A DNA stretch of 64,000 nucleotides from Ostreococcus lucimarinus. Lineage: Eukaryota. The notes below the pieces were generated by a model that was not told the DNA's origin, made no database searches, and saw nothing but the letters and a program-made list of their open reading frames with translations. Of the stretch, positions 5,488 through 47,299 are shown in pieces (the stretch's first letter is position 1; every line of letters begins with the position of its first letter). The stretch lies in assembly GCA_000092065.1 (NCBI GenBank), contig CP000588.1; one strand, given 5' to 3'. The translations under genes and the position numbers were made by a program.

Positions 5488-8148
5488 ATGAGTGATGACT
5501 CGAAGACGACGCACGGGGTACACGCGACGGATCGAGAGCGTCACTTTTACGCGTCGGCGACGCGCCGCGTCGGCGACGCGCCGACGCCGCGCTCGCGTCG
5601 TCGTCATTCCCGTCGCGCGGTCGCGCGGTCGGGACTCGTCGAACGATCGGTCGCGCGCCGAGGTGTCGCGACCCGCACTCGCCGCCGCGCGCGTTCGTTC
5701 CGCGCGCGCGCGATGCCGCTGCGACGCGACTACGCGAGCGCGGGCGCGAACCGCGGGACGCGATGCGCGACGTTCGCGCGCTGCGGACGCGCGACGGTGC
5801 ACTGCGGCGGCGACGGCGCGCACGCGCGCGCGATGGACGACGGAGGCGCGACGACGACGACGCGAGGCGCGGGCGCGCGCGCGACGTGCGTCGAAACGCT
5901 CGACGACGGACGAATCGTCGTCGGCGACGCGCTCGGGCGCGTGCGGGCGCGCGCGCCGGGCGAGGACGGGGGCGAGGGGGCGGTCGGGAGGCACGCGCGA
6001 GGACCGGTGCGGGACGTCGCGGCGGCGACGCGCGGGACCTTCGTCACGTGCGCGGACGACGGGGACGTCATCGCGTGGGCGACGCCGGAGAGGAACGAGA
6101 GCGGCGAAGAATTGAGAGAAATTGGGAGGTTGACGATGGCGAGCGCGAGCGCGCCGCTGTGCGCGGCGGTGACGCGCGCGCCGGGCGTCGAGGAGCGACG
6201 CGTGCTCGCCGTCGGGTGCGTCGACGGACGGACGCGGGTGTACGCGTGCGATTTCACGAACGAGGGCGCGGTGACGTTCGAGGCGTGCGGGGTTTTGGAC
6301 GGGCACGCGGATTGGGTGCGCGGCGTCGCCTTCGCGCCGACGAGGCGCGACGACGCCGTCTTCTTAGCGACGGCGAGTCAGGACCGCACCGCGAGGGTGT
6401 GGCGCGTGCAAACCGTGCCCGCGGACGGCGCGCGGGCGTCGAAGGACGCCGCGCCGTTCGCGCGTCTCGCCGCGCCGCCGGAGCCACCGAGCGCGGTGCT
6501 CGTCGGCCGGCGCGTGAAGACGTCGCTCGAGAGCTTGCTCATCGGACACGAGGATTGGGTCACGTCCGTGGCGTGGCACCCGGACGCGTCGAAGATGGTT
6601 TTGATGACGGCGAGCATGGATCGCTCGCTCGTGCTTTGGTCTCCGGCGGGCGCGCCGTGGACGAGCGAAGAGGCTGGCAGCGAGCTTTGGATGAGCTCGA
6701 CGTCCTTGGGCGAGGCGGCGGCGGTGTGCTTGGGGTACTACGGCGCGTCGTTTTCGCCCGACGGCGACGCGATAATGGCCAACAGTCACGGCGGCGCCCT
6801 ACACCAGTGGCTGCGCGACGACGATGGGTCGTGGCGTGCGATTCCGGGAACGTCTGGACACACGATGCGCGTGACGTGCTTGCGCTGGGACACCGCCGGT
6901 CGATGGCTCATGTCCGGCGGCGGAGATCAAACCGTCCGCGTGCACGCGCCGTGGCACGGCGACGGTCCGAAAGGTTGGCGCCAAATCGCTCGACCGCAAG
7001 TGCACGGCCACGACATCGTGTGTTTTGCTACGATGCACGACGACGCGGGGACGACGACGTACGTCAGCGGGGCGGATGAAAAGGTGTTGCGAGTTTTCGA
7101 AGCCCCCGGCACGTTCTTAGGAACCGTGATCAATAGTTTAGGAAACACGGACCCCGTCGCCGCGGCCGCGCTGACCAAGGCGAAGAACCTTTCTCTCGAG
7201 TCGCTCGGCGCCGAACTTCCCGCGCTCGGGTTGTCGAACAAGGCGCTTCGAGGCGCGGACGCGGAGGACTTGCCGAGCGACGTCGCGGGTCTTCGCGCGC
7301 AGGCGGCGCAGCAGGAAGGTTTAATCGAGGAATACAACGCGCGCGGCGTCGAAGCCATCACACCGCAGGCGCTCACGCACCCGCCACTCGAAGAAGTCCT
7401 CGCACAGGCGACGCTTTGGCCCGAAACGCGAAAATTGTACGGACATGGCAACGAAATTCGCGCCGTCGCCGCGCATCCGAGTGGCGATTTGATCGCTTCG
7501 GCGTCGAACGCGCTCACGGCGGCTTCGGCGGCTATTTGGGTCTGGTCGCGCGGACAGAACTGGAAGCCACTCGGAACTCTCAGCGGCGCGACACTCACGG
7601 TGACCGCGTTAGAGTTTACGCCGAGAAACGCCGCGCGAGATTACCTTCTCGCTGCGAGCCGCGACAGGCACGTCTGCCTGTTTGCGCCGTCGTCGCGCGA
7701 CGCGCCTCGAGGAGAATTCGGTGACGACGGGTGGCGCTTGCTGACGCGCTTCAAGGCGCACGATCGCGAGATATACGCCGCGTCTTGGGCGCCGTGCGGC
7801 GCTTTATTCGCCACAGCGGGGCGGGACAAAAAGGTGAAGATTTGGCGCGTCGTCGACGACGCGTGCGAGCCCGCGTGCGAGCTTCCCAAATTCACCGCCG
7901 CGCCGACGGCGATGGCGTTCGCGTCCGACCCCGACGCTCCACTCGCGATCGCAATCGGCTTCGACGACGGTGGGATCGAAGTCCACGTCGCATCCGCCGA
8001 CGCCGCGTCTTGGACGTTGTCGTCTCGCGCGTCCGCGAACGATCGTCACGGCGCCGCCGTGCGCGCCGTCGCGTGGCGTCCCGGCTCCTCCGCCGTCTTC
8101 GCCTCCGCCGGCGACGACCACGCCGTGCACGTGTACGAACACGAGTAA
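5488..8148 (+). CDS. ELP2: Elongator complex protein 2 (ELP2), WD40 repeat protein
   Basis: Multiple WD repeats. The C-terminal block LYGHGNEIRAVAAHPSGDLIASAS...AAIWVWS...LTVTALEFTP...LLAASRDRHVCLF aligns to the ELP2-specific region (LYGHGYEIFCV...AAIILWNT...SRDRTWSLW). The ORF begins at ATG 5488. The first ~110 codons are Arg-rich and the real start may be ATG 5713 or 5833 (both in frame). Confidence 0.7.
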   Translation: MSDDSKTTHGVHATDRERHFYASATRRVGDAPTPRSRRRHSRRAVARSGLVERSVARRGVATRTRRRARSFRARAMPLRRDYASAGANRGTRCATFARCGRATVHCGGDGAHARAMDDGGATTTTRGAGARATCVETLDDGRIVVGDALGRVRARAPGEDGGEGAVGRHARGPVRDVAAATRGTFVTCADDGDVIAWATPERNESGEELREIGRLTMASASAPLCAAVTRAPGVEERRVLAVGCVDGRTRVYACDFTNEGAVTFEACGVLDGHADWVRGVAFAPTRRDDAVFLATASQDRTARVWRVQTVPADGARASKDAAPFARLAAPPEPPSAVLVGRRVKTSLESLLIGHEDWVTSVAWHPDASKMVLMTASMDRSLVLWSPAGAPWTSEEAGSELWMSSTSLGEAAAVCLGYYGASFSPDGDAIMANSHGGALHQWLRDDDGSWRAIPGTSGHTMRVTCLRWDTAGRWLMSGGGDQTVRVHAPWHGDGPKGWRQIARPQVHGHDIVCFATMHDDAGTTTYVSGADEKVLRVFEAPGTFLGTVINSLGNTDPVAAAALTKAKNLSLESLGAELPALGLSNKALRGADAEDLPSDVAGLRAQAAQQEGLIEEYNARGVEAITPQALTHPPLEEVLAQATLWPETRKLYGHGNEIRAVAAHPSGDLIASASNALTAASAAIWVWSRGQNWKPLGTLSGATLTVTALEFTPRNAARDYLLAASRDRHVCLFAPSSRDAPRGEFGDDGWRLLTRFKAHDREIYAASWAPCGALFATAGRDKKVKIWRVVDDACEPACELPKFTAAPTAMAFASDPDAPLAIAIGFDDGGIEVHVASADAASWTLSSRASANDRHGAAVRAVAWRPGSSAVFASAGDDHAVHVYEHE

Positions 8149-8286
8149 CCCTAGCATTTTAGTCCATCGGAAACGTCGTAGCCACGTCGCCGCCTTCGCC
8201 TTCGCGCGTCGTCGCTCGTCGCCACTTCGCGCCTCGCGTCGAAGCCCGCGACGTCGTCCGCGCTCGACCGAGCGATTTCGCGCCCC

Positions 8287-8886
8287 ATGCGACCCGACGC
8301 GTGCGTTCGCGTCGCCGCGCGCGCGCTCTCGACTCGAGCGAGCGCCGGCGCGCCGTCGACGTCGTCGCCCCGCGCCGGTCCCGTCACCATCGCCCTGCGC
8401 GCGTTCGTCGCCGGCTGCACGCTCTACGCCTGCGACGCCGCGCTGGACGATTACGTGTTACTCGGCGTCGCGAAATCGCTCGCGCGCGAGCGCTCGACGA
8501 TCGACGACGACGCGCGGCTTCGCGAGGCGCTCGGCGACGACTACGCCGACGACGGCGCGTGGTGGAAATCGACGGTGTCGCGAGGCGGACGAAGCGACGT
8601 CGCGCGGGTGGTTTGGACGATCGAGGGCGCGAAAGCGGCGTGCGACGTCACGCTGACGATGCTGAACCGACGCGCGGAGCGGGAATCGGGATTGGGATGG
8701 ACGCGGTTCGCGCCGCCGAGTTTGGCGCACGCCGCGCTCGGGACGTCGATGTGGACGGCGTTCGCGGTGGATTGTTCGCTCCCGACGACGCGCGGGGGCG
8801 GGAGAAGCGCGCTCGTCAGTTTAATGCGCGACGTCGACGCCGCCGCCGACGGCGCGTCGGCCGCGAAAGTCGAAAAGAAATCGTAG
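8287..8886 (+). CDS. Hypothetical protein (199 aa) with transit-peptide-like N-terminus; family not recognised
   Basis: ATG-initiated ORF with balanced composition (W, Y, F, C present) in the 830-bp gap between ELP2 and the thioredoxin-like gene. An overlapping frame 7970..8656 is Pro/Arg-rich junk. Confidence 0.35.
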   Translation: MRPDACVRVAARALSTRASAGAPSTSSPRAGPVTIALRAFVAGCTLYACDAALDDYVLLGVAKSLARERSTIDDDARLREALGDDYADDGAWWKSTVSRGGRSDVARVVWTIEGAKAACDVTLTMLNRRAERESGLGWTRFAPPSLAHAALGTSMWTAFAVDCSLPTTRGGGRSALVSLMRDVDAAADGASAAKVEKKS

Positions 8887-8978
8887 CCGCGTTGCATTGC
8901 CCTATCGTCGCTCGCGCTCGTCGCCCGACGTCGCGAATCGTCGCCTCGCGCGTTCGCCGACCGCGCGTTCGCCCTCGA

Positions 8979-9404
8979 TCAATCGCGCGCCCTCTCCAAA
9001 TAATGCTCCACGAACGTCGCCAGCGCGTCGTACGTCGCCGCGCGGCTCGTCCCGTACTCGCGTCCCAGCTCGTCGCCGTCGCCCGGGACGTAATACTTGA
9101 TCGTCGGAAACCGCGTCGCGCGCTGCCACGCGCACACCTCCCGCGCCTCGCCGCAGTCGATCTCCAGGACGTCCACCGTTCGCTTTCGCACCGCGAACTC
9201 GTCGCGCAGCGCTTCCCAGTGCGGCTTCAGCGCCGCGCAGTGCGGACACCGCGCCATCGTGAACGCGACGACGACGGCGTCGCGCGTCTCCTGCTGCAGC
9301 ACGCGCTCGGCGAACGCGTCCACCGCGGTGACGTCGCCCGCCGCGACCGCGCGCGCGACGCACAGCGCGACGCACAGCGCGACGACGCCGACGCGTCGCG
9401 CCAT
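8979..9404 (-). CDS. Thioredoxin-fold / PDI-like secreted protein (signal peptide, CPHC active site)
   Basis: Reads MARRVGVVALCVALCVARAVAAG (signal peptide) ... VVAFTMARCPHCAALKPHWEAL ... FPTIKYYVPGDG. ATG at 9402-9404. Confidence 0.6.
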   Translation of the reverse strand: MARRVGVVALCVALCVARAVAAGDVTAVDAFAERVLQQETRDAVVVAFTMARCPHCAALKPHWEALRDEFAVRKRTVDVLEIDCGEAREVCAWQRATRFPTIKYYVPGDGDELGREYGTSRAATYDALATFVEHYLERARD

Positions 9405-9521
9405 TGTGACGTCCCGGCGCGACCGTTACGTCCCGTCCTCCATCGCGCCGCGCAGCGCGACGCGCGCGCGCTTCGGCGTCGCGCCGCGCGCGGCGACGCG
9501 CGCGACGACCGCCGCGACGCG

Positions 9522-11321
9522 ATGGACGACGCCGGCGCGCTTCGGCGCCGCGCTTCGGCGCTCGGCGCGACGCTCGGCGCGGACGACGACGCGCGCGCGT
9601 TCGGCGAACGCGTCGCGCGCGGCGACGTCGCCGGGACGCTGCGCGACGCCGAAGCGCGACCTGAACTCTTGCGCGCTTGCGTCGACGACGAGGGACGGCG
9701 CGCGACGCACGCGGCGGCGGCGCGCGGACGCGCGGGGGCGCTCGAGGCGCTGCTCGCGAGCGGCGCGGCGGCGGACGCGCGAGACGGCCGAGGACGGACG
9801 GCGCTGCACGAAGCGGCGAAGAGAGGCGACGGGGCGTGCGCGCGGGCGATACTGGACGCGCGGCGGAATTACGGGGCGCGGCATCCGAGCGCGCTGGGGG
9901 CGAGGGTGGACGCGAACGCGCGGGACGCGGCGGGATCGACGCCGCTGCTGGAGGCGACGTCGAGGGAGATGATCGCGACGCTGCTGCGAGAGGGCGCGGA
10001 TGGATCGATGCGACGGGGCGATGGATCGAACGCGGTGCACCTGGCGTGCGATCGCGCGGATGGGTGGGCGGTGGAGGCGTTGTTGGGGTGCGGCGTCGAT
10101 TGCGACGCGAGAGACGGGTCGAAGCGGACGGCGCTGCACCGAGCGAGGGACGCGCGATCCGTGGTCGCGCTGTGCGCGTCGGGCGCGGACGTCGAGTGCG
10201 TGGACGCGCGGGGACACACGCCGCTTCACGCGGCGGCGATCGAGGGTAAGCCGGAGGTCGTCGTGCCTCTCGCGAACGCGGGCGCGCGGTTGCGCGCGAG
10301 GACGCGAGGCGGGTTCTTGCCGGGCGCCACCGCGGCGGACTTGGCGGCCAAGTACGGGCACGACGACGTCGCGCGATTGCTGGCCGACGCGAGACAGGTG
10401 TCGCGCGTCGCGTATTTATCGATGTGTGCCGTCAATCACGAGGAAGAGCGAATTAAAAAGCAAATGAGGCGCTCGAGCGAGAAGCGCGCGGCGCTCCTGT
10501 GGGGCGCGCTCGTCGCGGTCGGCGTCGTGTTGTTCGCGCTCGTCGTCGGTCACTTTTGGTTCGCGGGGGCGAAGAGAGAGTTGCGCGAGTGGCGAGAAAT
10601 CCGACAGTCCAGAGAAAAGGCGAAGATTCTAAAGGCGAAACAGCAGGAAGCGGCGGCGAAGGCGGAGCTGAAACGCAAAATGAAGGCGGAGGCGGCGGCC
10701 GAGGCGTGGCGAGAGAACGCTCGCCAAAACGTTGAACGCGTGTTGAGATGCGGCGTGCACGGGACCTTGAAAGATGGCGTCAAGAAGGGCGGTGTTCACC
10801 GCTGCATTCTTTTCGGTCAAGATGGTAAAGGCCTGTCCAAAGAAGCTAACGCCGCGTGCGGCGTATGTGCAGATTTCCTCGCGGCGTTGCGCGAACGCCT
10901 CGACGCGTCGAACAAAGGAAAGACTGAAGCCGAAGTGGACGCTCACCTGACGGCGGCGTGTAAGAAGGCCGAAGGTCGTACTTCCAAGGTGTGTGATTCT
11001 CTTTTGGCCGCGCGAAAAGATTTGAACAGGCAAATGTCGTTCGGGGCGCCGCCGGCGAAAATTTGCGCGCGCCTCGGATCAAAAGATCCCGAATTATGCG
11101 CGGTGAAACCCGCGAGGGAAGGTGACCTCTCGAGCGATGGTAAAGGCGATGCGGCGGCGAGAGATGCGTTCAGAAAGTTGTCCGTGTTCGTGCATCCAGA
11201 CAAGCACGATAATTCCCCTCAAGCGACGGAAGCGTTCAAGATGCTCAACACGGCGAGGGCGTACTTCGATTCGCGCGCCAAGTTGAATGCCAAACGAGCG
11301 GCGTCTCAAGCGAAAACCTAG
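9522..11321 (+). CDS. Ankyrin-repeat protein with single TM helix, coiled coil and C-terminal J-domain (HPD motif)
   Basis: Reads RTALHEAAKRGD, GSTPLLEA, GSNAVHLAC, GHTPLHAAAIEG (ANK repeats). TM ALLWGALVAVGVVLFALVVGHFWF. K/E/A coiled coil. C-terminus FRKLSVFVHPDKH...AFKMLNTARAYF is J-domain-like. ATG 9522 (MDDAGAL) is in frame. Upstream of that the 8301.. ORF is Arg-rich and overlaps the thioredoxin-like gene. Confidence 0.6.
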   Translation: MDDAGALRRRASALGATLGADDDARAFGERVARGDVAGTLRDAEARPELLRACVDDEGRRATHAAAARGRAGALEALLASGAAADARDGRGRTALHEAAKRGDGACARAILDARRNYGARHPSALGARVDANARDAAGSTPLLEATSREMIATLLREGADGSMRRGDGSNAVHLACDRADGWAVEALLGCGVDCDARDGSKRTALHRARDARSVVALCASGADVECVDARGHTPLHAAAIEGKPEVVVPLANAGARLRARTRGGFLPGATAADLAAKYGHDDVARLLADARQVSRVAYLSMCAVNHEEERIKKQMRRSSEKRAALLWGALVAVGVVLFALVVGHFWFAGAKRELREWREIRQSREKAKILKAKQQEAAAKAELKRKMKAEAAAEAWRENARQNVERVLRCGVHGTLKDGVKKGGVHRCILFGQDGKGLSKEANAACGVCADFLAALRERLDASNKGKTEAEVDAHLTAACKKAEGRTSKVCDSLLAARKDLNRQMSFGAPPAKICARLGSKDPELCAVKPAREGDLSSDGKGDAAARDAFRKLSVFVHPDKHDNSPQATEAFKMLNTARAYFDSRAKLNAKRAASQAKT

Positions 11322-19616: not shown

Positions 19617-20198
19617 ATGATTAGTGTTTTCGGAAATCGTTTGAAAGGTGCGACGGCGGTGCGGTCGTTCGCTGTTAATAGTTTGGAGAGTATGAGAGGA
19701 TGTTTGATGAGTAGTGAGTTAGGCAGCCAGTGGGCGCCGGCGACGCGCTGGGCGAAGTCGATTGTTTCGACGACATCCGTCGCCGCCGGAGACGCCGCTG
19801 AGGGTCGATCGAGCCGACGTTCGCTGGACTTGAATCAAAAGTCTGGTGAAATCAAACCCGAATTAGTGAAAAAGTATCTGAGTGAGACCAACATGTCGAG
19901 GGGAGACGTGAACAAGCGCGCGCTCGCCGAAGAGCGAGCCGCGTTTGCGCGCGACGAACACGACACGGGGTCGAGCGAAGTACAAATCGCCAACTTGACC
20001 ATGCGCATTAAGCTCATGACGGAACATTTGCGTGAACATGGAAAGGACACGCACAGCCGTCACGGGCTCATGGCCATGCTCGAGCGCCGGAAGAAGCTTT
20101 TAAAGTACCTCCGACGCACCGACGGCGATAGGTACGCGGATGTCATTTTACGACTCGGTTTGAAGGATCGATCTTTCGTAGACGACAAGTACGCTTAA
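19617..20198 (+). CDS. Organellar (bacterial-type) ribosomal protein uS15 with ~90-aa N-terminal presequence
   Basis: C-terminal reads GSSEVQIANLTMRIKLMTEHLREHGKDTHSRHGLMAMLERRKKLLKYLRRTDGDRYADVILRLGL, the rpsO/S15 signature. ATG 19617 lies only 11 nt after the RPS30 stop. The N-terminal 90 aa are AT-richer, so the start could be an internal Met (e.g. MSRGDVNK). Confidence 0.65.
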   Translation: MISVFGNRLKGATAVRSFAVNSLESMRGCLMSSELGSQWAPATRWAKSIVSTTSVAAGDAAEGRSSRRSLDLNQKSGEIKPELVKKYLSETNMSRGDVNKRALAEERAAFARDEHDTGSSEVQIANLTMRIKLMTEHLREHGKDTHSRHGLMAMLERRKKLLKYLRRTDGDRYADVILRLGLKDRSFVDDKYA

Positions 20199-20345
20199 TA
20201 TTTTGTGATACGAGTCTTCAACTGCGTTTACACCGCGTGCCCGTCTCCGCCTCCCGAACGACGCGACGACGTAGTCGCATTTTTTTCGTCCGGGCTCGAG
20301 CGCCAAAAAGCCGTTTGCCGTTCCTCACACGCCACCGCGCGCACC

Positions 20346-21302
20346 ATGCTCGCATCGCGTCTCGCCAACGCCGCGCGACGCGCCACCGCGAGAACCGCGC
20401 GCGCGTCTTCATCCGCGCCCGCGTCCGCACCGCTGCGCCGCGCGCACGCGCTCGCGACGCGTCGTCGGTCGTCCCGCTCGAGCGCTTCGCGAAGCGCGTC
20501 TTCATCGAACGATGCCGACGCCGAAGCGCGCTCGCGCGACGATTGGATCGTCGTCGGGTGCGATTCCGACGCCCACGGCGCGCTGTGCGTGATCTCGGGC
20601 GCGTCCGTGGGCTCGGTGCGAAGCGTGAACGTTCGGGACAATCCCACGAGCACGGTGACGGTGAACGGACGCGCGCGACTGCGACTGGACCCGGACGCCA
20701 TGCGCGGCGCGGTGCGCGCGCTGGGCGTGCCCAAAGGCACGAGGGTGTATTTGGAAGAGGGCGGGGTCGAGTTCGGGTTCAGCGCGCAGACGGCGTTCGT
20801 GCAAGGGTATAATTTCGGGCTGTGGCGAGGCGTGCTCGCGGCGGAGGAATTCGAAGTGCGCGTGGTGAAGCCGCAGGCGTGGAAAGCGGCGATGGGGTTG
20901 AAGTTCAAGGGAAGCACGAAGGATGATTCGATCGCGATGGCGAAGATGCTTTTTCCCGAGATCGCCGGCGAGCTGAAGCGGAAGAAGGATCACGGGAGAG
21001 CCGAGTCGTTGCTCATCGCCGCGTACGGGCACGTCGCAGACGGGGGCGCGGCGGCGAAAGAGGAAGACGAACTGTGTTCTCGCGTACGCGCCGCGCTCGC
21101 CGACCGAGGCGTCGTCGACCGCGAAGAGGGCGCGGCGATGCCGTACTTTGGGCCGTATTTCGGCATGACTGGGGAAGAATTGAGGAAAGAACTCAAAGCG
21201 CGCGGGTGCAAAGTCGGCGGCAACAAAGCCGACTTGATTTTACGTCTCGAGTCGAGCGACGCGGAGATCAACGAGCGCGAATCCAAGAGCGCCGCGGCGT
21301 AG
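20346..21302 (+). CDS. RuvC/YqgF-like RNase-H-fold nuclease (Holliday-junction-resolvase-like) with C-terminal SAP domain and organellar transit peptide
   Basis: Reads MLASRLANAARRATARTARASSS... (transit-like). WIVVGCDSDAHGALCVISGA (RuvC motif I-like). RVYLEEGGVEFG (Glu). ESLLIAAYGH. C-terminus GMTGEELRKELKARGCKVGGNKADLILRLES is a SAP motif. ATG 20346 is in frame with ORF 20205. Confidence 0.5.
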   Translation: MLASRLANAARRATARTARASSSAPASAPLRRAHALATRRRSSRSSASRSASSSNDADAEARSRDDWIVVGCDSDAHGALCVISGASVGSVRSVNVRDNPTSTVTVNGRARLRLDPDAMRGAVRALGVPKGTRVYLEEGGVEFGFSAQTAFVQGYNFGLWRGVLAAEEFEVRVVKPQAWKAAMGLKFKGSTKDDSIAMAKMLFPEIAGELKRKKDHGRAESLLIAAYGHVADGGAAAKEEDELCSRVRAALADRGVVDREEGAAMPYFGPYFGMTGEELRKELKARGCKVGGNKADLILRLESSDAEINERESKSAAA

Positions 21303-32546: not shown

Positions 32547-35500
32547 CTACGCCTTTGCGACGCTAAACAAGTCGGCGAGCGAAATCCACATGTACGAACT
32601 CTTGTTCATAATCTTTTCGAGCTTTTCGTGCGCCCCGTCTAATGCAATTTCCAACCCAGGCGCCTCGGAAATCTTTTTACGGAACTCGGCGCGTTCATCC
32701 TTGCTCTTATTACTGCGCTCAGCTTCCTTGATGGACAGCAATCGCTTGTAATATAAAAGTTGGTTGTACAATTCGTCCTCTGGGATGCTCTTCTCCATCG
32801 TGCCCTTGGACATCGGGTCAGCGCTCAAAGTGCCTGTCAATTCCGCGTTGGTGTGATGGCAACGAAGCGTGATGTTGCGCGTCTCCGTCGCATCGACGTC
32901 GTCGTCCGATCGAAGCGGGGCTGCGTAGAACTCCTTGATGCGTTCGCGAACGGCGAGACTGACCTGGTTTGCCAATGAGGCGGCATCGATCGTTTCCGTC
33001 CTCAACGCCGTCTTGCCTTGAGCCGGCGCGTTTTCCTTGCCCGCGCCGGGCGTCGGCGGCGCCAACACCTCGGTCGCGGACATCTTGTCATCCATGACTT
33101 CACGAATTCCACGGAAATCAAACTCGACGCCTGTGCGCGTGCGAAGCTTCAGAGGCTTACACTTGGCAAAGCGCTCTTCGTCATCCAACGCGAATCTACC
33201 ACCGCCAAACGTGTCGTCGTACTCGTCCTCATCGCGTGTTTGCGTTTTAAACTTGTTCGAGTCCAACCCGAGGCATTCCGCCATCGCGGCGCCGTCGGTT
33301 TCCTCAATCGGGGCGCACAAACGAGTTATCACGGGATGGACTTGCTGAGACAAGTAGTAGTGCAAATCAACCTTCAAACCCTTCTCGAGGATTTCGTCGG
33401 GATGATAGGCCCGCTCGGCCAAGCCCTTTCCACCAGAGGCGCCGGCTTTTCCCGCGGCGATGTCCTCGAGCGGCAGCTCGCTTTCCAGCGCGATGATGTA
33501 CGGCACAGTCTCTCCCGCCTTGACGCCATCTTGTTTACCAGCCTCCAATCGACGTTTGGCTACCATGACGTGCGGCTGATGCTTTGCGTCGGGGTACTCT
33601 TCAACCGCCTTCGTGAGTTGCTTCGTGATGATGTACTTGGACAACTGCACGCGGTTTTCAACCATGTCCTTTCGGATCGTACGTAAACCGTCGTGAATCG
33701 CGTTCACGCGCTCTTCGCGTTCACCATCCACATCAAGAAGTTCTTCGAGAGTTTGTTTACCAACGTCCTTCACCAGCGGCGCCCAATCACGACGAACGAT
33801 ATCGAGACCCTTCATCTCGAGCTTCGTCGCCTTGGTTCCATTCGGTCCGTTGACAACCTTCATGGCGGCGTACTTCTTCTTCTTCAACAGCAACATCGAT
33901 CGGAAGATGTAATCTTCCTCCAAAACCAATTTCCGATATTCTTTGTTGACGAAACGAATGAGTTTGTTTCCGAGCGCCCTAGAATGATTCAAATCGTGAG
34001 ACTTGGTGTTCACCATAATGGAATCCGTATCGCCGTAAATGACGTCCAGCTCGCACTTCGCTTTCGCGAGATCCTCCGTGCGCTGAAGAATCTTACGACC
34101 TTGCGCCGTGATCAACGCCGCAATGGGCTCGGCAAAAAAGCGCGACTGACTAAAACCCAAGCAACCGTACATGGAGTTTGCGGTGAGCTTGAGAGCCAGC
34201 TGGCGAAGATCATACTGCTTTGCGCGCGCCGGATCTTTTTCGCGAGCCATCAATCCTTTCACTTCTCTACGGCTTTGCACAATGTTCGCGATGACTTTCG
34301 GCAGGACGGCGAAGTCCTTGTCGCTTAAGATCGGCGCGGGTAGTTCAATTTCGGTGTTTTCTTCGCCCGCGTCGAAATGTCGCCGCACCGTGGTGTAGCA
34401 AATGTTGTACTCTTGAATAATCGACGGGTACAACGACTGGTAATCGAGGACGAGGACAAAGGTGTCGTACAGGCCCTTCTTCGGCTCAAGCACCCGGCCA
34501 CCCGCGTAAGACGGACCCTTCTTACCGCCATCATCCTCTTCTTCACCGCTCGCCGCGGCGACGCGGCGACGTTCCTTGGCACTTAAACGATCGGGGACGA
34601 TGTGCTTGCGACTGTGGAATTCGTGAAGCAAGAGGTACTCGACGCGCTGAGCGCGCGTGTGCCCGAGCGTCTTACTCCAAAGGTTACCGGCGATGTTCGA
34701 CAGCTGCTTCGTCAACGGGACGACTTCCATCTTAAACATCAGATGCAAACTCAACTTTGCGTCGATTTCCGTGCACTTGATCAAATGCATGAGAGCGTTC
34801 GTGTCTTGATAACGGTTGGGGATTTCGGCGCTCGGCACTTCTTCTCGTCGTACGCCAAGTTGCGTTTCAGAGAGCGACGTAAGCGTGTAAGACACCTCCT
34901 TGCCCAACAAATCTTTCGCACTCAAGTACGTATCCGCTAAAAGTCTTCCAGCGAGACACTGCAACGCGCCCATGGACGCACCTCCTCCGTAAGCACCTCC
35001 AGAGCCGTTGATGTTTGGCATGCGCGTACGTTTCATGCGACCGATGCGGCTCCAATGGCCAATCTTGTTCGCCTGAAATCGGCGAAGCAACACTTCGAGA
35101 TTGAAACCGCCGATGTTGTGACCGACGATGACATCCGGGTCGAGTTGGTGCAACTTTGCCAAAAGAAAGTTGAGCAAACCGAGTTCGTTGTTCTGCGCGG
35201 CGAGGACGACGGAGCCTGTACGCTTGGCGATGACATTGGTGTTGTTCTCGTGCGCGACTGCATTTTGCCATCCCGGAGGCATCTCCAGTCCATCGAGCTT
35301 GCGCACGACGGTAAAATGACGTAAACCGGTCTTCAGTTGCGCCGCCGTTGTGGATCCTTCGCAGTTTACGTCGCGAATGTACTGCACCGAGGCGACTGCG
35401 ATTTCGTTCACGTTGGTTTGCTGATTGACGATCGTCTGCAGGTTCAACGAAGCAACGGTGAGACGCGGCGCTGGGCGCGATGCGATGGCTTCGAGACAAG

Positions 35501-37199
35501 GGCGCACACTCTTGTGTGCGTTCGGCAGTGTGAGCTCGAGTTTGCACCAAGACTTTTGCTTCTCCGTCGGAACGATGGCGGCGCCGTGAAGCGCGATCCA
35601 ACTCGGGCCCTTGAGCTTAGACTTGAGCGTGAGAAGTTCCAACATGGGAGCCTGCGTGCCCAAAGCGGCGACGAAGTGCTTACCCTTGATATCGCTCGGA
35701 AACGCTGCGTAAGTCGCCGGGATCTTCACTTTGAGCACGAACAACGGACCTTGCGGAATGTCCTTGCGCTCAAAGCAATAGCGTCGGCGGACGATGGTGA
35801 TCTTCGAGTTCTCAATCTTTCGCGCCTTCAAGACTTCTTTGACTTCGGCGCGAAGGTCACCGGACAAAGGCACGAGTTTTTTCATGAGATCAGATTTCGC
35901 CTTTTGAGCCGCAATTCTCTTTTCCTCCTTCTTGTCGTCCGAATCCGCGCACGACTTGAATTCGCGCCGCGTTTCCTCCATCATTTGCCCCAGCGCTTCC
36001 AACTCTCCATCAGGATCAGCGAACGTAGACGCGGTCGGAACGATGTACATGCATCTTTGCATGTTCTGCACCACCGCACACGCACTGATGGTCTCCGACT
36101 GCGGATCGCTCGACACCGGCACACGACCGAAGAGGAACACTGTGCCGGGGGATTCGCGCTCTTCTTGCGCATCCATGAAGAAGAAGGGCGTCGAACCGTC
36201 CGAATCTCTAGGGAGCTCCGCACCATTGAACGTCACAGGGCCGGCATCTTGCGTCACGGGACCGACATCCTCTGGCTCTTCGTCTTCGTCGAGCGTTTTG
36301 AGAATTGATTCGGGTTCCGGCGGCCGTTGCCCGGCGTCGGTTTTGACAATTTTCACCGACTTCTTCGTTTCAGCGCTCAACGGCTCGGCTTCGGGCATGG
36401 CGACATCTATATCGACGTCATCATTTTCAATCGCACCGTCGTCTTCGTCGTCGAATGCGCCGACATCTCCCGTGGGCAAATCTTCGTCCTCTTCCTCGAT
36501 TTCAAATCGAACTGATTTCTTCGCGCTGCTCCCGGGCGTCTTAGCCGGCGAACGCGCGATCGTCGCCGCGGTAGACGCCGCGACAGCCTTACGCGGTGAA
36601 CGTCGCGGTGCAACAGGCGGAACATACGGCTTTGTCTTCGGCTTGGGCGCCGACACTACCATCGGCGCCGTCGACCCGACGTCCATGTCCACGCCGGCGA
36701 GAATATCTTCCAACATCGCGTCCGTATCCGCTTCTGCCGCCAAATCATCCAACTTCTTCTTCTTCGGCACTCCACCGACGAGCATCCCAGCCTTACTCTT
36801 CGCGTTCGCGTTCGCCTTCTTCGCCTTCTCCTTCGCGCTCAGCTTCTTTTTCGGTTCCGGCGCCGCCTTTTGCGCCTTTCTCCCGTCGGCGTCGTACTCT
36901 TCGTCGTCTGAATAATTCTCATTCGCCGCCGTCCAATCTTCCTCCTCCCCCAGATCCTCGTATCCCTCGCCATCATCGTTCACCACGAATCCCGCTCCCT
37001 CCTCGCGTCGTTTCGCCACTAACGCTCGATATTGTTCCTCGTCCAACTCCTCGTACACGTCCTCGATCGCGTCCGCCTCGGCGTCCACCTCATCGATTCT
37101 CGATCGCTTCCCGCCGCCCTCGCGCAGCTCGCGAAGCTTCGCCGTCGCCGCGAGCGCTTTCGCCGCCTTGGACGAGCCCGCGCGTCGGCTCCCGCTCAT
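32547..37199 (-). CDS. POLA1: DNA polymerase alpha catalytic subunit (family B)
   Basis: 1550-aa uninterrupted ORF. Reads DYQSLYPSII, KLTANSMYGCLGF, YGDTDSIMV. Acidic N-terminal region. C-terminal Cys-rich zinc modules. Confidence 0.9.
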   Translation of the reverse strand: MSGSRRAGSSKAAKALAATAKLRELREGGGKRSRIDEVDAEADAIEDVYEELDEEQYRALVAKRREEGAGFVVNDDGEGYEDLGEEEDWTAANENYSDDEEYDADGRKAQKAAPEPKKKLSAKEKAKKANANAKSKAGMLVGGVPKKKKLDDLAAEADTDAMLEDILAGVDMDVGSTAPMVVSAPKPKTKPYVPPVAPRRSPRKAVAASTAATIARSPAKTPGSSAKKSVRFEIEEEDEDLPTGDVGAFDDEDDGAIENDDVDIDVAMPEAEPLSAETKKSVKIVKTDAGQRPPEPESILKTLDEDEEPEDVGPVTQDAGPVTFNGAELPRDSDGSTPFFFMDAQEERESPGTVFLFGRVPVSSDPQSETISACAVVQNMQRCMYIVPTASTFADPDGELEALGQMMEETRREFKSCADSDDKKEEKRIAAQKAKSDLMKKLVPLSGDLRAEVKEVLKARKIENSKITIVRRRYCFERKDIPQGPLFVLKVKIPATYAAFPSDIKGKHFVAALGTQAPMLELLTLKSKLKGPSWIALHGAAIVPTEKQKSWCKLELTLPNAHKSVRPCLEAIASRPAPRLTVASLNLQTIVNQQTNVNEIAVASVQYIRDVNCEGSTTAAQLKTGLRHFTVVRKLDGLEMPPGWQNAVAHENNTNVIAKRTGSVVLAAQNNELGLLNFLLAKLHQLDPDVIVGHNIGGFNLEVLLRRFQANKIGHWSRIGRMKRTRMPNINGSGGAYGGGASMGALQCLAGRLLADTYLSAKDLLGKEVSYTLTSLSETQLGVRREEVPSAEIPNRYQDTNALMHLIKCTEIDAKLSLHLMFKMEVVPLTKQLSNIAGNLWSKTLGHTRAQRVEYLLLHEFHSRKHIVPDRLSAKERRRVAAASGEEEDDGGKKGPSYAGGRVLEPKKGLYDTFVLVLDYQSLYPSIIQEYNICYTTVRRHFDAGEENTEIELPAPILSDKDFAVLPKVIANIVQSRREVKGLMAREKDPARAKQYDLRQLALKLTANSMYGCLGFSQSRFFAEPIAALITAQGRKILQRTEDLAKAKCELDVIYGDTDSIMVNTKSHDLNHSRALGNKLIRFVNKEYRKLVLEEDYIFRSMLLLKKKKYAAMKVVNGPNGTKATKLEMKGLDIVRRDWAPLVKDVGKQTLEELLDVDGEREERVNAIHDGLRTIRKDMVENRVQLSKYIITKQLTKAVEEYPDAKHQPHVMVAKRRLEAGKQDGVKAGETVPYIIALESELPLEDIAAGKAGASGGKGLAERAYHPDEILEKGLKVDLHYYLSQQVHPVITRLCAPIEETDGAAMAECLGLDSNKFKTQTRDEDEYDDTFGGGRFALDDEERFAKCKPLKLRTRTGVEFDFRGIREVMDDKMSATEVLAPPTPGAGKENAPAQGKTALRTETIDAASLANQVSLAVRERIKEFYAAPLRSDDDVDATETRNITLRCHHTNAELTGTLSADPMSKGTMEKSIPEDELYNQLLYYKRLLSIKEAERSNKSKDERAEFRKKISEAPGLEIALDGAHEKLEKIMNKSSYMWISLADLFSVAKA

Positions 37200-37574: not shown

Positions 37575-38420
37575 TCACAAACCGCGCTCGAGGGCGCGAT
37601 CGAGCTTTTGCGCGACGACGTCGAACCAGCGTTGGTCGCTCGGCGTCAAACCGCGCTGCGTTCGTGAGCCGATGACGAGCACGGCGCCGTCGCCGATCGG
37701 ACGCACGCACACGGCTTGCGTGTTCACGGGAAAGAATCGCTCGAACTCGACGCGACCCGGGAAGAGGATGAGATTGGCTAGATAGTTGGGCGCGGCGTCT
37801 CGCGCGGCGGCGGCGCAAATCGGACCGAGCTCGACGTCTCGCGTCAACGCCTCGGGATCGCGCAGCGCGTTCGCCGCGATCCCCGCTTGCATGACGCGTC
37901 GTCCATCCTTCGTGAAAACCGCCATGACGTCACAATTCGTCGACTCGCGCGCGGCGTCCCACGCCCACGCTAACTCGTCCCGGAGCGCCTTCGTCGCCGT
38001 CGCCGCGTAATACGGCGTCTCCAATCGCGTCCCCACCAACTCCACCACGTTCGGTGGTTTCGTCTTCAGCGCGATCCACGTCAATCCGGTGAGCACTAAG
38101 CACGCGGACATCGCGAGACAGATGACGTCGGCGCGAGACTGCGCGCTCGACGCGTCCGCCACCGGCGCGACGCCGCTCAGCGCGCGGTTCGCCAGCAGCG
38201 CCACCGCGCTCACCGCGCCGAACGCCGCGGGCGACGCGCGCGCGACGTCGGCGTAACGCTGCAACGGTTCCGCGGGGTCGTCGTCGCCCGCGGCGCGCGG
38301 TCGAGGCGCCGCGCGCCGTCGCGAGAGGCGCAGCGGTCGGCGCGACGTCGACGTCGACGCGCGCGCGCACGACGCGACGCGCGACGCGACGGCGGCGGCG
38401 CGCGGCGCCGTCGTCGTCAT
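37575..38420 (-). CDS. Conserved hypothetical protein with transit-peptide-like N-terminus and one TM segment (plastid-type), family not recognised
   Basis: MTTTAPRAAAVASRV... (Ala/Arg/Ser-rich). TM ADVICLAMSACLVLTGLTWIALK. Then a globular domain ..MAVFTKDGRRVMQAGI...GSRTQRGLTPSDQRWFDVVAQKL. ATG 38418-38420. The upstream 190 codons of the ORF are Arg-rich junk. Confidence 0.4.
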   Translation of the reverse strand: MTTTAPRAAAVASRVASCARASTSTSRRPLRLSRRRAAPRPRAAGDDDPAEPLQRYADVARASPAAFGAVSAVALLANRALSGVAPVADASSAQSRADVICLAMSACLVLTGLTWIALKTKPPNVVELVGTRLETPYYAATATKALRDELAWAWDAARESTNCDVMAVFTKDGRRVMQAGIAANALRDPEALTRDVELGPICAAAARDAAPNYLANLILFPGRVEFERFFPVNTQAVCVRPIGDGAVLVIGSRTQRGLTPSDQRWFDVVAQKLDRALERGL

Positions 38421-38587
38421 TCGCGCCGTTCGACGCCGGCGCGCGGCGGTCGCGCGCGCGGGTGTGTGAACGGCGCGCGGACGCGCGGGACGGCGACGCC
38501 GCGACGCGTCGGCGACGCGGCTTCGGCGACGCTCGAGCGATCGATCGGGCGGAAATAATGTACAGTGCACGTTGAAGAAATCTAAAG

Positions 38588-46747: not shown

Positions 46748-47115
46748 CCGCGTCCTCGCCGGCGTTCGCGCGCTCCGCTGCGACCGTCTCGCGCGACGGT
46801 GCACCGTCAGCGTCGGTCGCGCCGTCGTCGCGTCGTCGCTCGCGCGCGTCGTCGCGTCGTCGTCGCGCCCGTTCGCCTCCCGATGCGGCGCCGTCGCGAA
46901 TCCTTCCCCGCGCGCGCCGTGGAGCCCGTACGCGGGCAGCGGCAGCGCGGGCAGCGGCGGCGGCGGTGCGCGCGCCGCGCGCGCCTCGCCCGCGCCGCCG
47001 TCGTCGCCCGCGCCGTCGCTCGACATGGCGCGCGTCGCGCAGTGCCGGTCGTTGCGTCAATCATCGCCTCGCGCGTCGCCGACGTCGCGCGCGCGACGTC
47101 GGCGCGCCGCGAACG

Positions 47116-47267
47116 ATGCGCGCGACGACGTCGTCGACGGCGCCGCGCGCGCGCGACGGCGATCGGCGCGACGGCGAGGCGTCGACGGCGCCGTCTTTGA
47201 CTGATTTGTTCAAACGCCTCGCGCGGACGCACGTCGAGCGACGACGACGCGACGGCGCGGCGGCGCG

Positions 47268-47299
<32 letters not shown>

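What the first reader, a model, noticed from the sequence alone, without database searches (positions are those of the whole stretch)
20346..21302. Organelle-targeted RuvC-like nuclease fused to a SAP DNA-binding motif
An N-terminal Ser/Ala/Arg-rich presequence is followed by an RNase H-fold with RuvC/YqgF-like acidic motifs (VVGCDSD..., ..YLEEGG.., ..ESLLIAAYGH). A C-terminal SAP motif (EELRKELKARGCKVGGNKADLILRL) follows. This architecture is reminiscent of chloroplast Holliday-junction resolvases (MOC1-type), here with an appended SAP module.
Basis: partly seen in the sequence, partly recalled or inferred. Interest (0 to 1): 0.5.

Follow-up and report, generated by a model that had tools for sequence, protein, structure and literature searches.

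The report
Algal MOC1 resolvase with SAP tail
This Ostreococcus nuclear gene encodes a relative of MOC1, the plant chloroplast enzyme that cuts Holliday junctions, with an extra C-terminal SAP DNA-binding motif that land-plant MOC1 lacks; it is a modest variant of a known enzyme, not a new system.

Summary
Window 20346-21302 (+) is one uninterrupted 318-aa ORF. It has an acid-free Ser/Ala/Arg-rich N-terminus, an RNase H-fold nuclease core and a C-terminal SAP motif.

- **Core:** it matches solved MOC1 structures (phmmer E 6e-27; predicted fold on ZmMOC1 at TM 0.91, rmsd 1.4 Å). The catalytic D-D-E-E tetrad (D73, D75, E137, E220) and K192/H216 are kept.
- **SAP motif:** it passes Pfam's curated cut-off (34.9 vs 23.9 bits).
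- **Organism:** Ostreococcus lucimarinus. The RefSeq model (XP_001419065.1, "predicted protein, partial", 195 aa) omits both the presequence and the SAP.
- **The fusion is real:** relatives down to about 48% identity keep it, in genomes of 41-67% GC, with the same ribosomal-S15 gene upstream. Three more divergent unnamed groups also carry a C-terminal SAP.
- **Where SAP is absent:** the land-plant, Chara, Botryococcus and Bigelowiella homologues scanned.
- **Difference from plant MOC1:** the base-recognition loop that gives plant MOC1 its cytosine specificity is not conserved.

Best reading: an organelle-imported, probably plastid, Holliday-junction resolvase tethered to nucleoid DNA by SAP. 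Chloroplast versus mitochondrial targeting is unresolved. This is a new variant of a known kind, of modest interest.

The parts
20346..21302 (+). Complete single-exon CDS, 318 aa plus stop: presequence, MOC1-type nuclease, linker and SAP.
   Evidence: An identical 318-aa protein is called on many marine metagenome contigs.
20346..20531 (+). Putative organellar targeting presequence, aa 1-62. It is Ser/Ala/Arg-rich, has no acidic residue before aa 56, and has an amphipathic N-terminal stretch (muH up to 0.60).
   Evidence: pLDDT is below 50. Identity among Ostreococcus-like orthologues is only 37%, against 83% for the core, but the composition is kept. Targeting itself is inferred, not tested.
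20541..21038 (+). MOC1-type RNase H-fold Holliday-junction resolvase core, aa 66-231.
   Evidence: phmmer against PDB MOC1 chains gives E 6e-27 to 1e-21. In the AF2 model nearly all 10-residue blocks of the core have mean pLDDT of 89 or more (three are lower). Foldseek to ZmMOC1/NtMOC1 gives TMt 0.82-0.92 and rmsd 1.4-2.9 Å over about 161 columns. phrog_1770 matches at E 1.3e-23.
20562..20570 (+). Catalytic D73-S-D75, equivalent to NtMOC1 D116/D118 and ZmMOC1 D115/D117.
   Evidence: Alignments; coordinates; residue roles from PMC7078210 and PMC11183143.
20754..20792 (+). Catalytic E137 (equivalent to NtMOC1 E175) followed by the base-recognition loop EEGGVEFGFSAQT. The loop has the same length as in plants but a different sequence: Nt Y180 aligns with E142 (F143 is adjacent) and Nt D183 aligns with F145.
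   Evidence: The alignment is ungapped between the conserved E137 and G158-L-W160. Loop variants across the family are listed. Loop function in NtMOC1 comes from PMC7078210.
20919..20921 (+). K192, equivalent to ZmMOC1 K229 (mutated to Ala in solved MOC1 entries 8kfv/8kfw); invariant in alignment A1.
   Evidence: K229A structures are listed.
20991..21005 (+). H216-G-R-A-E220: the active-site His (ZmMOC1 H253) and the fourth catalytic acid (NtMOC1 E258, ZmMOC1 E257), within the family signature KKDHGRAE(A/S)LLIAAYG.
   Evidence: PMC11183143.
21060..21107 (+). Conserved linker helix EEDELCSRVRAALADR, aa 239-254.
   Evidence: Predicted helix 242-253; mean pLDDT is 91 for residues 241-250 and 80 for 251-260. 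Identity is 79% among Ostreococcus-like and 38% among other SAP-bearing relatives. Its role is unknown.
21135..21167 (+). Clade-specific motif (A/L)PYFGPYFGM immediately before the SAP, aa 264-274.
   Evidence: It is conserved at 77-87% identity across relatives whose flanking linker has diverged to 16-35%. It is absent from the other SAP-bearing groups. Its function is unknown.
21159..21254 (+). SAP motif, aa 272-303, a predicted helix-extended-helix DNA-binding module.
   Evidence: Pfam PF02037 matches at E 1.1e-8, above the gathering score. Predicted helices are 276-285 and 294-317, with block-mean pLDDT of 81-92 over residues 271-300. There are weak individual matches to the SAP domains of MKL1, Tho1, Hcc-1 and E1B-AP5.

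Best explanation
This gene encodes the Ostreococcus lucimarinus member of the MOC1 family of organellar Holliday-junction resolvases.

Shown:
- A nuclear, single-exon gene makes a 318-aa protein.
- Residues 66-231 are homologous to MOC1 by sequence and adopt the MOC1 fold in the prediction.
- The four metal-binding acids (D73, D75, E137, E220) and the conserved K192 and H216 are retained.
- Residues 272-303 are a SAP motif.
- The fusion is conserved across divergent relatives.

Inferred:
- The acid-free Ser/Ala/Arg-rich N-terminus is a transit peptide that delivers the protein to an organelle. By homology with Chlamydomonas and Arabidopsis MOC1 this is most likely the single chloroplast.
- After import, the core dimerises and embeds a four-way junction in its basic cleft. 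It makes two symmetric nicks by two-metal-ion catalysis and so separates recombined or replicated plastid genome copies before organelle division.
- The SAP module sits on a roughly 40-residue conserved linker and binds duplex DNA non-specifically. This keeps the resolvase concentrated on the nucleoid, as SAP domains do for the Chlamydomonas nucleoid protein CNS.
- The base-recognition loop differs from that of plants, so the preferred cleavage sequence probably differs from the plant C-C site.
For: - **Family identity:** phmmer against the PDB hits only MOC1 chains at E 6e-27 to 1e-21 over aa 64-229. The AF2 model has mean pLDDT 79, with most of the core above 90. Foldseek places it on ZmMOC1/NtMOC1 at TMt 0.82-0.92 and rmsd 1.4-2.9 Å, while bacterial RuvC reaches only TM 0.5-0.6.
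- **Active site:** D73, D75, E137 and E220 are present in at least 90% of 23 aligned homologues, and K192 and H216 are invariant. Their roles are established by mutagenesis and crystallography in NtMOC1 and ZmMOC1 (PMC7078210 and PMC11183143).
- **SAP:** Pfam match above the curated cut-off, with a predicted helix-extended-helix.
- **Genuine, selected fusion:** most of the roughly 80 algal-type homologues carry PF02037. The YFG motif and SAP stay 77% and 55% identical where the presequence and tail fall to 16-22%. Relatives in genomes of 41% and 67% GC keep both the architecture and the upstream S15 neighbour.
- **Nuclear gene context:** neighbours include DNA polymerase alpha, kinases, Rpb4 and EAP30.
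- **Presequence:** no acidic residue in the first 55 aa, net charge +9 over 60 aa, disordered, and similar in composition but not sequence in orthologues.
- **SAP on plastid nucleoids has precedent:** the SAP region of CreCNS is sufficient for nucleoid localisation and binds DNA non-specifically, and pTAC3 is a SAP protein of plant nucleoids (PMC4758235).
Against: - No targeting predictor or localisation data were available. Chlorophyte plastid and mitochondrial presequences resemble each other, so 'chloroplast' rests on homology alone.
- In a rough NJ tree the Ostreococcus-type clade, the plant-type clade and the phage/bacterial-type proteins form three separate clusters, so strict orthology with plant MOC1 is not demonstrated.
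- I could not search the rest of the Ostreococcus genome for a second, plant-type MOC1.
- The residues that plant MOC1 uses for cytosine recognition (Nt Y180, D183) are not conserved.
- Nuclease activity, dimerisation and DNA binding by the SAP are all untested here.
- SAP motifs are typically nuclear.
Confidence: 0.7

Rival explanations
1. The enzyme is the same, but it is imported into the mitochondrion, or into both organelles, and resolves junctions in mitochondrial DNA.
For: The N-terminus (MLASRLANAARRATARTARA) can form an Arg-faced amphipathic helix with muH up to 0.60, which is a classic mitochondrial-presequence feature. The conserved upstream neighbour is an organellar-type ribosomal S15 of unknown destination. 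No Ydc2/Cce1-type match was seen for this protein, so it does not exclude a mitochondrial role. From general knowledge, no dedicated mitochondrial resolvase is known in the green lineage.
Against: Every experimentally localised MOC1 (Chlamydomonas, Arabidopsis) is plastidial (cited in PMC7078210). The long Ser-rich second half of the presequence (RRRSSRSSASRSASSS) is more transit-peptide-like. Green-algal plastid transit peptides are known to resemble mitochondrial ones, so the amphipathic helix does not discriminate.
Confidence: 0.2
2. The gene is not the orthologue of plant MOC1. It is a separately acquired or anciently duplicated phage-type RuvC-like resolvase that gained a presequence and a SAP on its own path. 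It would be functionally analogous to MOC1 but have a different history.
For: The core matches the phage family phrog_1770 at E 1.3e-23. It also matches phage genomes, including cyanophages, at 28-35% identity over about 95% of the core, not far below the 36-45% identity to land-plant MOC1. The profile search finds 11,590 cluster representatives, many of them stand-alone proteins of about 165 aa. In the NJ tree the window's clade sits apart from the plant-type clade, which itself contains Botryococcus, Bigelowiella and another SAP-bearing group. The loop and the GCDSD motif differ from the plant-type GIDPD.
Against: The tree is a quick NJ/BLOSUM distance tree without support values and with midpoint rooting. 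It is equally compatible with the two eukaryotic clades being sisters and the root lying among the phage sequences. PDB phmmer scores to plant MOC1 (E 1e-27) are much better than tblastn scores to any phage (best 2e-12). No second MOC1-like protein named as Ostreococcus, Micromonas or Bathycoccus appeared among the hits.
Confidence: 0.15
3. A nuclear DNA-repair nuclease. The SAP motif is a typically nuclear chromatin or scaffold-binding module, and the Arg-rich N-terminus would act as a nuclear or nucleolar signal rather than a transit peptide.
For: The solved SAP domains it weakly resembles (MKL1, Tho1, Hcc-1, E1B-AP5) are nuclear proteins. From memory, the nuclear resolvase scaffold SLX4 also contains a SAP domain.
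Against: The N-terminal extension is acid-free, Ser/Ala-rich, disordered and fast-evolving, like the extensions on the plant MOC1 sequences retrieved here, whose mature cores align with it. All characterised family members are plastidial. SAP proteins are documented inside plastid nucleoids (PMC4758235).
Confidence: 0.04
4. A gene-model artefact: two adjacent genes (nuclease and SAP protein), or a nuclease plus a chance in-frame tail, read as one ORF in GC-rich DNA.
For: The RefSeq model stops at aa 247 and lacks the SAP. GC-rich DNA gives many long spurious ORFs.
Against: The RefSeq entry is flagged partial at both ends rather than ending at a stop codon. There is no stop between aa 247 and 318. 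The same collinear nuclease-linker-YFG-SAP arrangement occurs in dozens of relatives down to 48% identity and in genomes of 41-67% GC. The linker helix and YFG motif are themselves conserved.
Confidence: 0.02

Closest known systems
MOC1 (monokaryotic chloroplast 1), the chloroplast Holliday-junction resolvase of Chlamydomonas, Arabidopsis, maize and tobacco (PDB 6is8/6is9, 6kvn/6kvo, 8kfr-8kfw)
   Same: The core is homologous (E 6e-27; 36-45% identity) and the predicted fold is the same (TMt 0.91). The D-D-E-E tetrad and the Lys/His equivalents are kept, along with the KKDHGRAE(A/S)LLIAAYG signature. An N-terminal extension precedes the core, and the gene is nuclear.
   Different: It carries a C-terminal linker plus SAP motif of about 85 aa that is absent from every streptophyte homologue scanned. 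The first catalytic motif is GCDSD instead of GIDPD. The base-recognition loop is EEGGVEFGFSAQT instead of EQSxPxPxDGKQG, so the Tyr/Asp pair that reads the cytosine in NtMOC1 is missing.
Phage RuvC-like Holliday-junction resolvases (PHROG phrog_1770; for example Planktothrix phage PaV-LD, Ralstonia phage DU_RP_II, Caulobacter phage CcrRogue)
   Same: Full-length core similarity: phrog_1770 at E 1.3e-23, and tblastn at 28-35% identity over about 95% of the core. The ...DHGRAEALLIA... motif is shared.
   Different: The phage and bacterial-type proteins are stand-alone, about 155-185 aa, with no presequence and no SAP. Most have GIDPG rather than a second Asp in motif 1.
Bacterial RuvC (E. coli, Thermus, Deinococcus, Pseudomonas)
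   Same: RNase H-like resolvase fold and acidic active site. Foldseek gives E 6e-5 to 3e-3.
   Different: Only fold-level similarity: TM 0.5-0.6, 14-19% identity, and no Pfam RuvC match even at E<=10.
Cce1/Ydc2 mitochondrial resolvases of fungi
   Same: Nuclear-encoded, organelle-imported RNase H-fold junction resolvases, so an analogous role (general knowledge; discussed in PMC7078210).
   Different: No detectable sequence match (no Pfam Ydc2 hit, and none among the PDB hits). They have no SAP.
SAP-domain chloroplast nucleoid proteins CreCNS (Chlamydomonas) and pTAC3 (land plants)
   Same: A SAP motif operating inside the plastid on nucleoid DNA. In CreCNS the SAP region suffices for nucleoid localisation and binds DNA non-specifically (PMC4758235).
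   Different: Those are architectural or transcription-associated proteins (CreCNS has four SAPs at its N-terminus), not nucleases. Here a single SAP sits at the C-terminus of an enzyme.

Membership tests
MOC1 family (organellar Holliday-junction resolvase) | Significant sequence homology of the core to characterised MOC1 proteins | tested here: met
   phmmer against the PDB: nine MOC1 sequences at E 6e-27 to 1e-21 over aa 64-229, with no other significant hit. Land-plant proteins named MOC1 match at E 1e-31 to 1e-21.
MOC1 family (organellar Holliday-junction resolvase) | RNase H-like fold superimposable on MOC1 crystal structures | tested here: met
   Most of the core has block-mean pLDDT of 89 or more in the AF2 model. 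Foldseek gives TMt 0.82-0.92 and rmsd 1.4-2.9 Å over about 161 columns to 6jrf, 6is8, 6kvo, 6lcm and related entries. This is a predicted model, not an experimental structure.
MOC1 family (organellar Holliday-junction resolvase) | Catalytic tetrad D-D-E-E (NtMOC1 D116, D118, E175, E258) | tested here: met
   D73, D75, E137 and E220 align to these residues and are at least 90% conserved in A1. Residue roles come from PMC7078210.
MOC1 family (organellar Holliday-junction resolvase) | Conserved active-site Lys and His (ZmMOC1 K229, H253) | tested here: met
   K192 and H216 are invariant in A1. Both residues are mutated in solved ZmMOC1 structures, and PMC11183143 notes that H253 does not coordinate the Mn2+ ions.
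MOC1 family (organellar Holliday-junction resolvase) | Base-recognition loop with aromatic residue and Asp (NtMOC1 Y180, D183) that gives cytosine-dependent cleavage | tested here: not met
   The loop has the same length, but Y180 aligns to E142 (F143 is adjacent) and D183 aligns to F145. The loop EEGGVE(F/Y)GFSAQT is conserved in the algal clade. This feature sets specificity rather than catalysis. Its absence argues for a different cleavage preference, not against the resolvase function.
MOC1 family (organellar Holliday-junction resolvase) | N-terminal transit peptide and chloroplast nucleoid localisation | tested here: inconclusive
   The composition is presequence-like: no Asp/Glu in the first 55 aa, 12 Arg/Lys and 17 Ser/Thr in the first 60 aa, and predicted disorder. 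No TargetP or PredAlgo was available, and plastid and mitochondrion cannot be told apart.
MOC1 family (organellar Holliday-junction resolvase) | Homodimer that binds and symmetrically cleaves four-way junctions | not testable with these tools
   This needs biochemistry. Only a monomer model could be predicted.
SAP motif (Pfam PF02037) | Profile match above the curated threshold with the conserved L..L...G....G.K..L..RL pattern | tested here: met
   34.9 bits against a cut-off of 23.9, E 1.1e-8, aa 272-303. L279, L283, R286-G287, G291, K294, L297 and R300-L301 are present.
SAP motif (Pfam PF02037) | Two helices separated by an extended loop | tested here: met
   Predicted helices are 276-285 and 294-317, separated by an 8-residue non-helical stretch, with block-mean pLDDT of 81-92 over residues 271-300. 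This is a prediction only.
SAP motif (Pfam PF02037) | Binds DNA | not testable with these tools
   Inferred from characterised SAP domains, including CreCNS in plastids (PMC4758235).
Canonical bacterial RuvC (Pfam PF02075) | Match to the RuvC profile | tested here: not met
   There was no Pfam hit other than SAP and a sub-threshold LEM match at E<=10. Only fold-level similarity was found.
YqgF/RuvX and Ydc2/Cce1 families | Match to the family profile or to solved members | tested here: not met
   There was no Pfam hit, and no member appears among the PDB sequence or Foldseek matches at E<=1e-3.

The most novel reading that the evidence does not exclude
The SAP-tethered form is the ancestral or a repeatedly selected state of the green-lineage plastid resolvase. 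At least four sequence-divergent groups carry it, while streptophytes, Botryococcus and Bigelowiella lack it. In picoalgae with a single plastid, the SAP tail together with a rebuilt base-recognition loop would give a nucleoid-anchored resolvase whose cleavage specificity differs from the plant C-C rule. The whole MOC1 family would descend from a phage RuvC-like resolvase (phrog_1770), adding the plastid resolvase to the list of phage-derived organellar DNA enzymes.
Probability: 0.3. Interest if true: 0.5.

Novelty: new variant of a known kind. Interest (0 to 1): 0.3.

Why it matters
MOC1 is the only known plastid Holliday-junction resolvase, and it is required for nucleoid segregation. It is also being developed as a structure-guided nuclease tool (PMC10867802).

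- A natural version with a built-in DNA tether and a different base-recognition loop would show how resolvase recruitment and sequence preference can be changed. It would also be a ready source of variants with other cleavage specificities.
- For Ostreococcus, a cell with one plastid and one mitochondrion, it names the probable enzyme that untangles organelle genomes before division.
- It corrects a truncated public gene model.
- The clear link to a phage resolvase family bears on the origin of organellar DNA-maintenance enzymes.

None of this overturns current understanding. It extends a known family.

Tried and rejected
- **Search with the C-terminal 82 aa alone**, to ask whether the linker+SAP module occurs in other protein contexts. 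Only 7 candidates and 4 fragments of the same gene came back, so it was uninformative.
- **Profile search with the seven divergent SAP-bearing proteins**, meant to put species names on those groups. Low-complexity words saturated the candidate list, only 9 unnamed hits came back, and the taxa remain unknown.
- **Foldseek against afdb50**, to obtain named UniProt homologues and their architectures. The library was not installed.
- **Kobayashi et al. 2017** (Science, the MOC1 discovery paper). It is not held, so I could not check whether Chlamydomonas MOC1 itself has a SAP or what their phylogeny shows.
- **Cluster look-ups**. They named only O. lucimarinus, streptophytes, Botryococcus, Bigelowiella and Closterium. 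No Chlamydomonas, Micromonas or Bathycoccus entry was recovered, so 'Mamiellophyceae-wide' is inferred from similarity, synteny and marine origin, not from names.
- **The EukProt label 'Pelagococcus subviridis' on P0016**. I judged it unreliable as evidence for a stramenopile MOC1-SAP, because the sequence is very close to the GC-rich Micromonas-like group.
- **Viral-contig scan and context look-up for the stand-alone 203-aa relatives** (P0193 group). Nothing was found.
- **NCBIfam.** It gave nothing relevant for the window protein or the short relatives.
- **Rejected readings.** A chance ORF, a two-gene read-through, and a YqgF or Ydc2 family assignment; the reasons are in the rivals and membership tables.
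Full report
**1. What is in the sequence.**
Window 20346-21302 (+) is an uninterrupted ORF of 318 codons, from ATG to TAG.
- The mechanical ORF list extends it to a GTG at 20205. However, the nearest upstream in-frame stop (20196-20198) is the stop codon of the preceding gene, and ATG 20346 is the first Met after it. Orthologues start at the same place (MLAARL..., MLARV...).
- GC3 is 0.80 against 0.67 overall GC, as expected for a real coding frame in this genome.
- Long ORFs on the opposite strand (229 and 176 aa) were not searched for homologues; such ORFs are expected by chance in DNA of 66% GC.

**2. Organism and gene model.**
The identical protein is the representative of a 58-member cluster that contains XP_001419065.1, [quoted passage not shown].
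- That public model is 195 aa and corresponds to aa 53-247 (nt 20502-21086). It therefore lacks both the N-terminal extension and the SAP motif.
- The full 318-aa product is called on hundreds of marine metagenome contigs.
- The neighbours are ordinary nuclear genes: ribonucleotide reductase small subunit, ribosomal S15, cytochrome bc1 hinge, GRIM-19, EAP30, Rpb4, a DEAD-box helicase, DNA polymerase alpha, protein kinases and a gamma-tubulin complex protein.
- This is a nuclear chromosome of a compact picoalgal genome. The gap between the S15 stop and the ATG is only 147 nt.

**3. The nuclease core.**
- Pfam has no model that matches the core; the only Pfam hit is SAP.
- Against the PDB, the protein hits nine MOC1 sequences (maize, tobacco and further MOC1 entries) at E 6e-27 to 1e-21 over aa 64-229, and nothing else of significance.
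- An AlphaFold2 model built on a 23-sequence alignment has mean pLDDT 79. Most of the core is above 90 and residues 1-56 are below 50.
- Foldseek puts the model on ZmMOC1/NtMOC1 at TMt 0.82-0.92 and rmsd 1.4-2.9 Å over about 161 columns. Bacterial and phage RuvC follow at TM about 0.5-0.6.
- The four acidic residues shown by mutagenesis and crystallography to bind the catalytic metals (NtMOC1 D116, D118, E175, E258; ZmMOC1 D115, D117, E174, E257; PMC7078210 and PMC11183143) align with D73, D75, E137 and E220. ZmMOC1 K229 and H253 align with K192 and H216. All of these are invariant or at least 90% conserved among the aligned homologues.

**4. What differs in the core.**
In NtMOC1, the loop after the catalytic Glu inserts Y180 into the junction and uses D183 to read a cytosine. 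This explains cleavage between two cytosines (PMC7078210).
- The loop has the same length here, so the alignment register is fixed by conserved residues on both sides.
- Its sequence is EEGGVEFGFSAQT rather than EQSxPxPxDGKQG. Y180 falls on E142 (with F143 adjacent) and D183 falls on F145.
- This loop is strictly conserved within the algal clade and varies between family branches.
- I infer a different sequence preference. This is not tested.

**5. The SAP motif and linker.**
- Pfam SAP matches aa 272-303 at 34.9 bits (cut-off 23.9; E 1.1e-8), and the consensus Leu/Gly/Lys/Arg positions are present.
- The model shows two helices (276-285 and 294-317) separated by an extended segment.
- Individual solved SAP domains (MKL1, Tho1, Hcc-1, E1B-AP5) match only weakly, as is usual for a 35-residue motif.
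- Between core and SAP lie a confidently predicted, conserved helix (aa 239-254) and a striking clade-specific motif, (A/L)PYFGPYFGM. I cannot assign a function to either.

**6. Is the fusion real and selected?**
Yes.
- Of the roughly 80 algal-type homologues at 45-80% identity, most carry PF02037. None of the land-plant MOC1 proteins listed does.
- Identity by region to the divergent SAP-bearing relatives is: core 65%, YFG motif 77%, SAP 55%, against presequence 22%, first linker 16% and C-terminal tail 16%.
- Two relatives at 48-51% identity sit in genomes of 41% and 67% GC. Both have the same ribosomal-S15 gene immediately upstream on the same strand, and one also has the RNR small subunit. 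These are therefore orthologues in related picoalgae, probably other Mamiellophyceae. That taxonomic assignment is inferred, because no names were recoverable.

**7. Wider distribution.**
A profile search of 1.84 billion cluster representatives found 11,590 family members at E<=1e-3.
- Among the best 150, further C-terminal SAP motifs occur in three more divergent, unnamed groups: P0196/P0207; P0209/P0212/P0219/P0272; and P0202/P0225.
- Each group has its own loop sequence.
- Representatives from Diphasiastrum, Marchantia, Chara, Closterium, Welwitschia, Botryococcus and Bigelowiella lack SAP.
- A rough NJ tree gives three clusters: the window's clade (with P0202/P0225 and some short SAP-less proteins); the stand-alone phage/bacterial-type proteins; and a plant-type clade that contains the other SAP groups.
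- The tree has no support values. It leaves open whether SAP is ancestral or was gained more than once, and whether the window's clade is strictly orthologous to plant MOC1.

**8. Relation to phage enzymes.**
- The core matches PHROG phrog_1770 ("Holliday junction resolvase") at E 1.3e-23.
- tblastn finds 59 phage genomes at under 40% identity (27-35% in the 25 rows listed); 28 of them cover at least 80% of the core. They include cyanophages of Planktothrix and Microcystis.
- BFVD fold matches are phage RuvC-like proteins.
- MOC1 therefore belongs with a phage/bacterial RuvC-like family distinct from canonical RuvC. I found no paper in the library that makes this point, though I did not read them all.

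**9. Mechanism.**
Shown:
- the domain architecture;
- the retained active site;
- conservation of the tail.

Inferred from established MOC1 work:
- a dimer binds the open junction in a basic cleft and makes paired nicks by two-metal catalysis (a third metal ion is also reported), which allows plastid nucleoids to segregate.

Inferred from SAP biology, including the plastid nucleoid protein CreCNS, whose SAP region alone localises to nucleoids and binds DNA non-specifically, and pTAC3 (PMC4758235):
- the SAP tail holds the enzyme on nucleoid DNA.

Inferred from composition only:
- import into an organelle. The N-terminus has no acidic residue for 55 aa, is Arg/Ser/Ala-rich, has an amphipathic start and is disordered. 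Orthologues share this character but not the sequence.
- Chloroplast is favoured because all localised MOC1s are plastidial. A mitochondrial or dual location cannot be excluded.

**10. Comparison and novelty.**
The protein passes the defining tests for the MOC1 family (homology, fold, tetrad, Lys/His) and fails only the specificity-loop test. It passes the SAP tests.
- It is not a member of the canonical RuvC, YqgF or Ydc2/Cce1 families at sequence level.
- No paper in the searchable library combines MOC1 with a SAP domain or with Ostreococcus in a relevant way.
- The discovery paper was not available, so I cannot say whether the authors noted SAP in any algal homologue.
- I rate it a new variant of a known kind: correct and tidy, useful for annotation and for enzyme engineering, but not surprising to a specialist.

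**11. Verdict.**
Interest is 0.3.

Noticed in passing
window 20502-21086 (aa 53-247 of the CDS 20346-21302): The public RefSeq model for this gene (XP_001419065.1, O. lucimarinus, 'predicted protein, partial', 195 aa) covers only the nuclease core. It omits the start codon, the presequence and the SAP motif, so the domain fusion is invisible in that annotation.
   Followed up: yes
window 19617-20198 (+) and loci L006 1077-1811, L009 2036-2650: A ribosomal protein S15 gene (Pfam PF00312) with an N-terminal extension lies directly upstream on the same strand, and its stop codon is in the same reading frame as the resolvase ORF, 147 nt before the ATG. The S15-resolvase adjacency is conserved in relatives of only 48-51% identity with genome GC of 41% and 67%. 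Whether the pairing has any regulatory meaning is unknown.
   Followed up: partly
window 20541-21038 (core); phage hits H1-H25: The MOC1 core has no Pfam family, but it matches the phage family phrog_1770 (E 1.3e-23) and 59 phage genomes, including Planktothrix and Microcystis cyanophages. A profile search finds 11,590 cluster representatives, many of them stand-alone proteins of about 165 aa. This suggests the plastid resolvase family derives from a phage/bacterial RuvC-like lineage. No proper phylogeny was made.
   Followed up: partly
proteins P0196, P0207, P0209, P0212, P0219, P0272, P0202, P0225 (metagenome-derived; no window coordinates): Three further, mutually divergent groups of MOC1-like proteins also end in a SAP motif. 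They have N-terminal extensions and their own versions of the base-recognition loop (ERATARLGNSLQS, ERPHARHGV..., EGGGVEFHFSSYS). P0202/P0225 also have GKHGRAD in place of KDHGRAE. Their source organisms could not be identified.
   Followed up: partly
protein P0193 (locus L005 356-967) and relatives P0188, P0205, P0233, P0269: Short proteins of 170-260 aa have a core that starts at residue 2-4, with no presequence and no SAP. In the NJ tree they cluster with the Ostreococcus-type clade rather than with the phage-type group. The P0193 cluster alone has 138 members in metagenomes. Their origin (virus of algae, bacterium, or fragmentary gene calls) is unresolved; nothing was found in IMG/VR and there are no Pfam hits on the neighbouring gene.
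   Followed up: partly
window 21135-21167 (aa 264-274): The motif (A/L)PYFGPYFGM directly before the SAP is the best-conserved stretch outside the catalytic core in this clade (77-87% identity). It is absent from the other SAP-bearing groups and matches nothing I could name.
   Followed up: no
window 8001-10000, 38001-40000 and 46001-48000: These are local GC peaks of 0.705-0.735, against 0.63 for the whole window. They lie within or next to large ORFs (an ankyrin/ARMET/DnaJ protein at 8301-11318, and the 5' end of a gamma-tubulin-complex protein ORF at 46966-51084 that overlaps an ABC1-kinase ORF on the other strand). This is probably low-complexity Ala/Arg/Gly-rich coding sequence. It was not examined.
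   Followed up: no
window 32550-37199 (-): A single uninterrupted 1550-aa ORF encodes a complete DNA polymerase alpha catalytic subunit (N-terminal, exonuclease, polymerase and zinc-finger domains). This illustrates the intron-poor, compact nature of this chromosome region.
   Followed up: no
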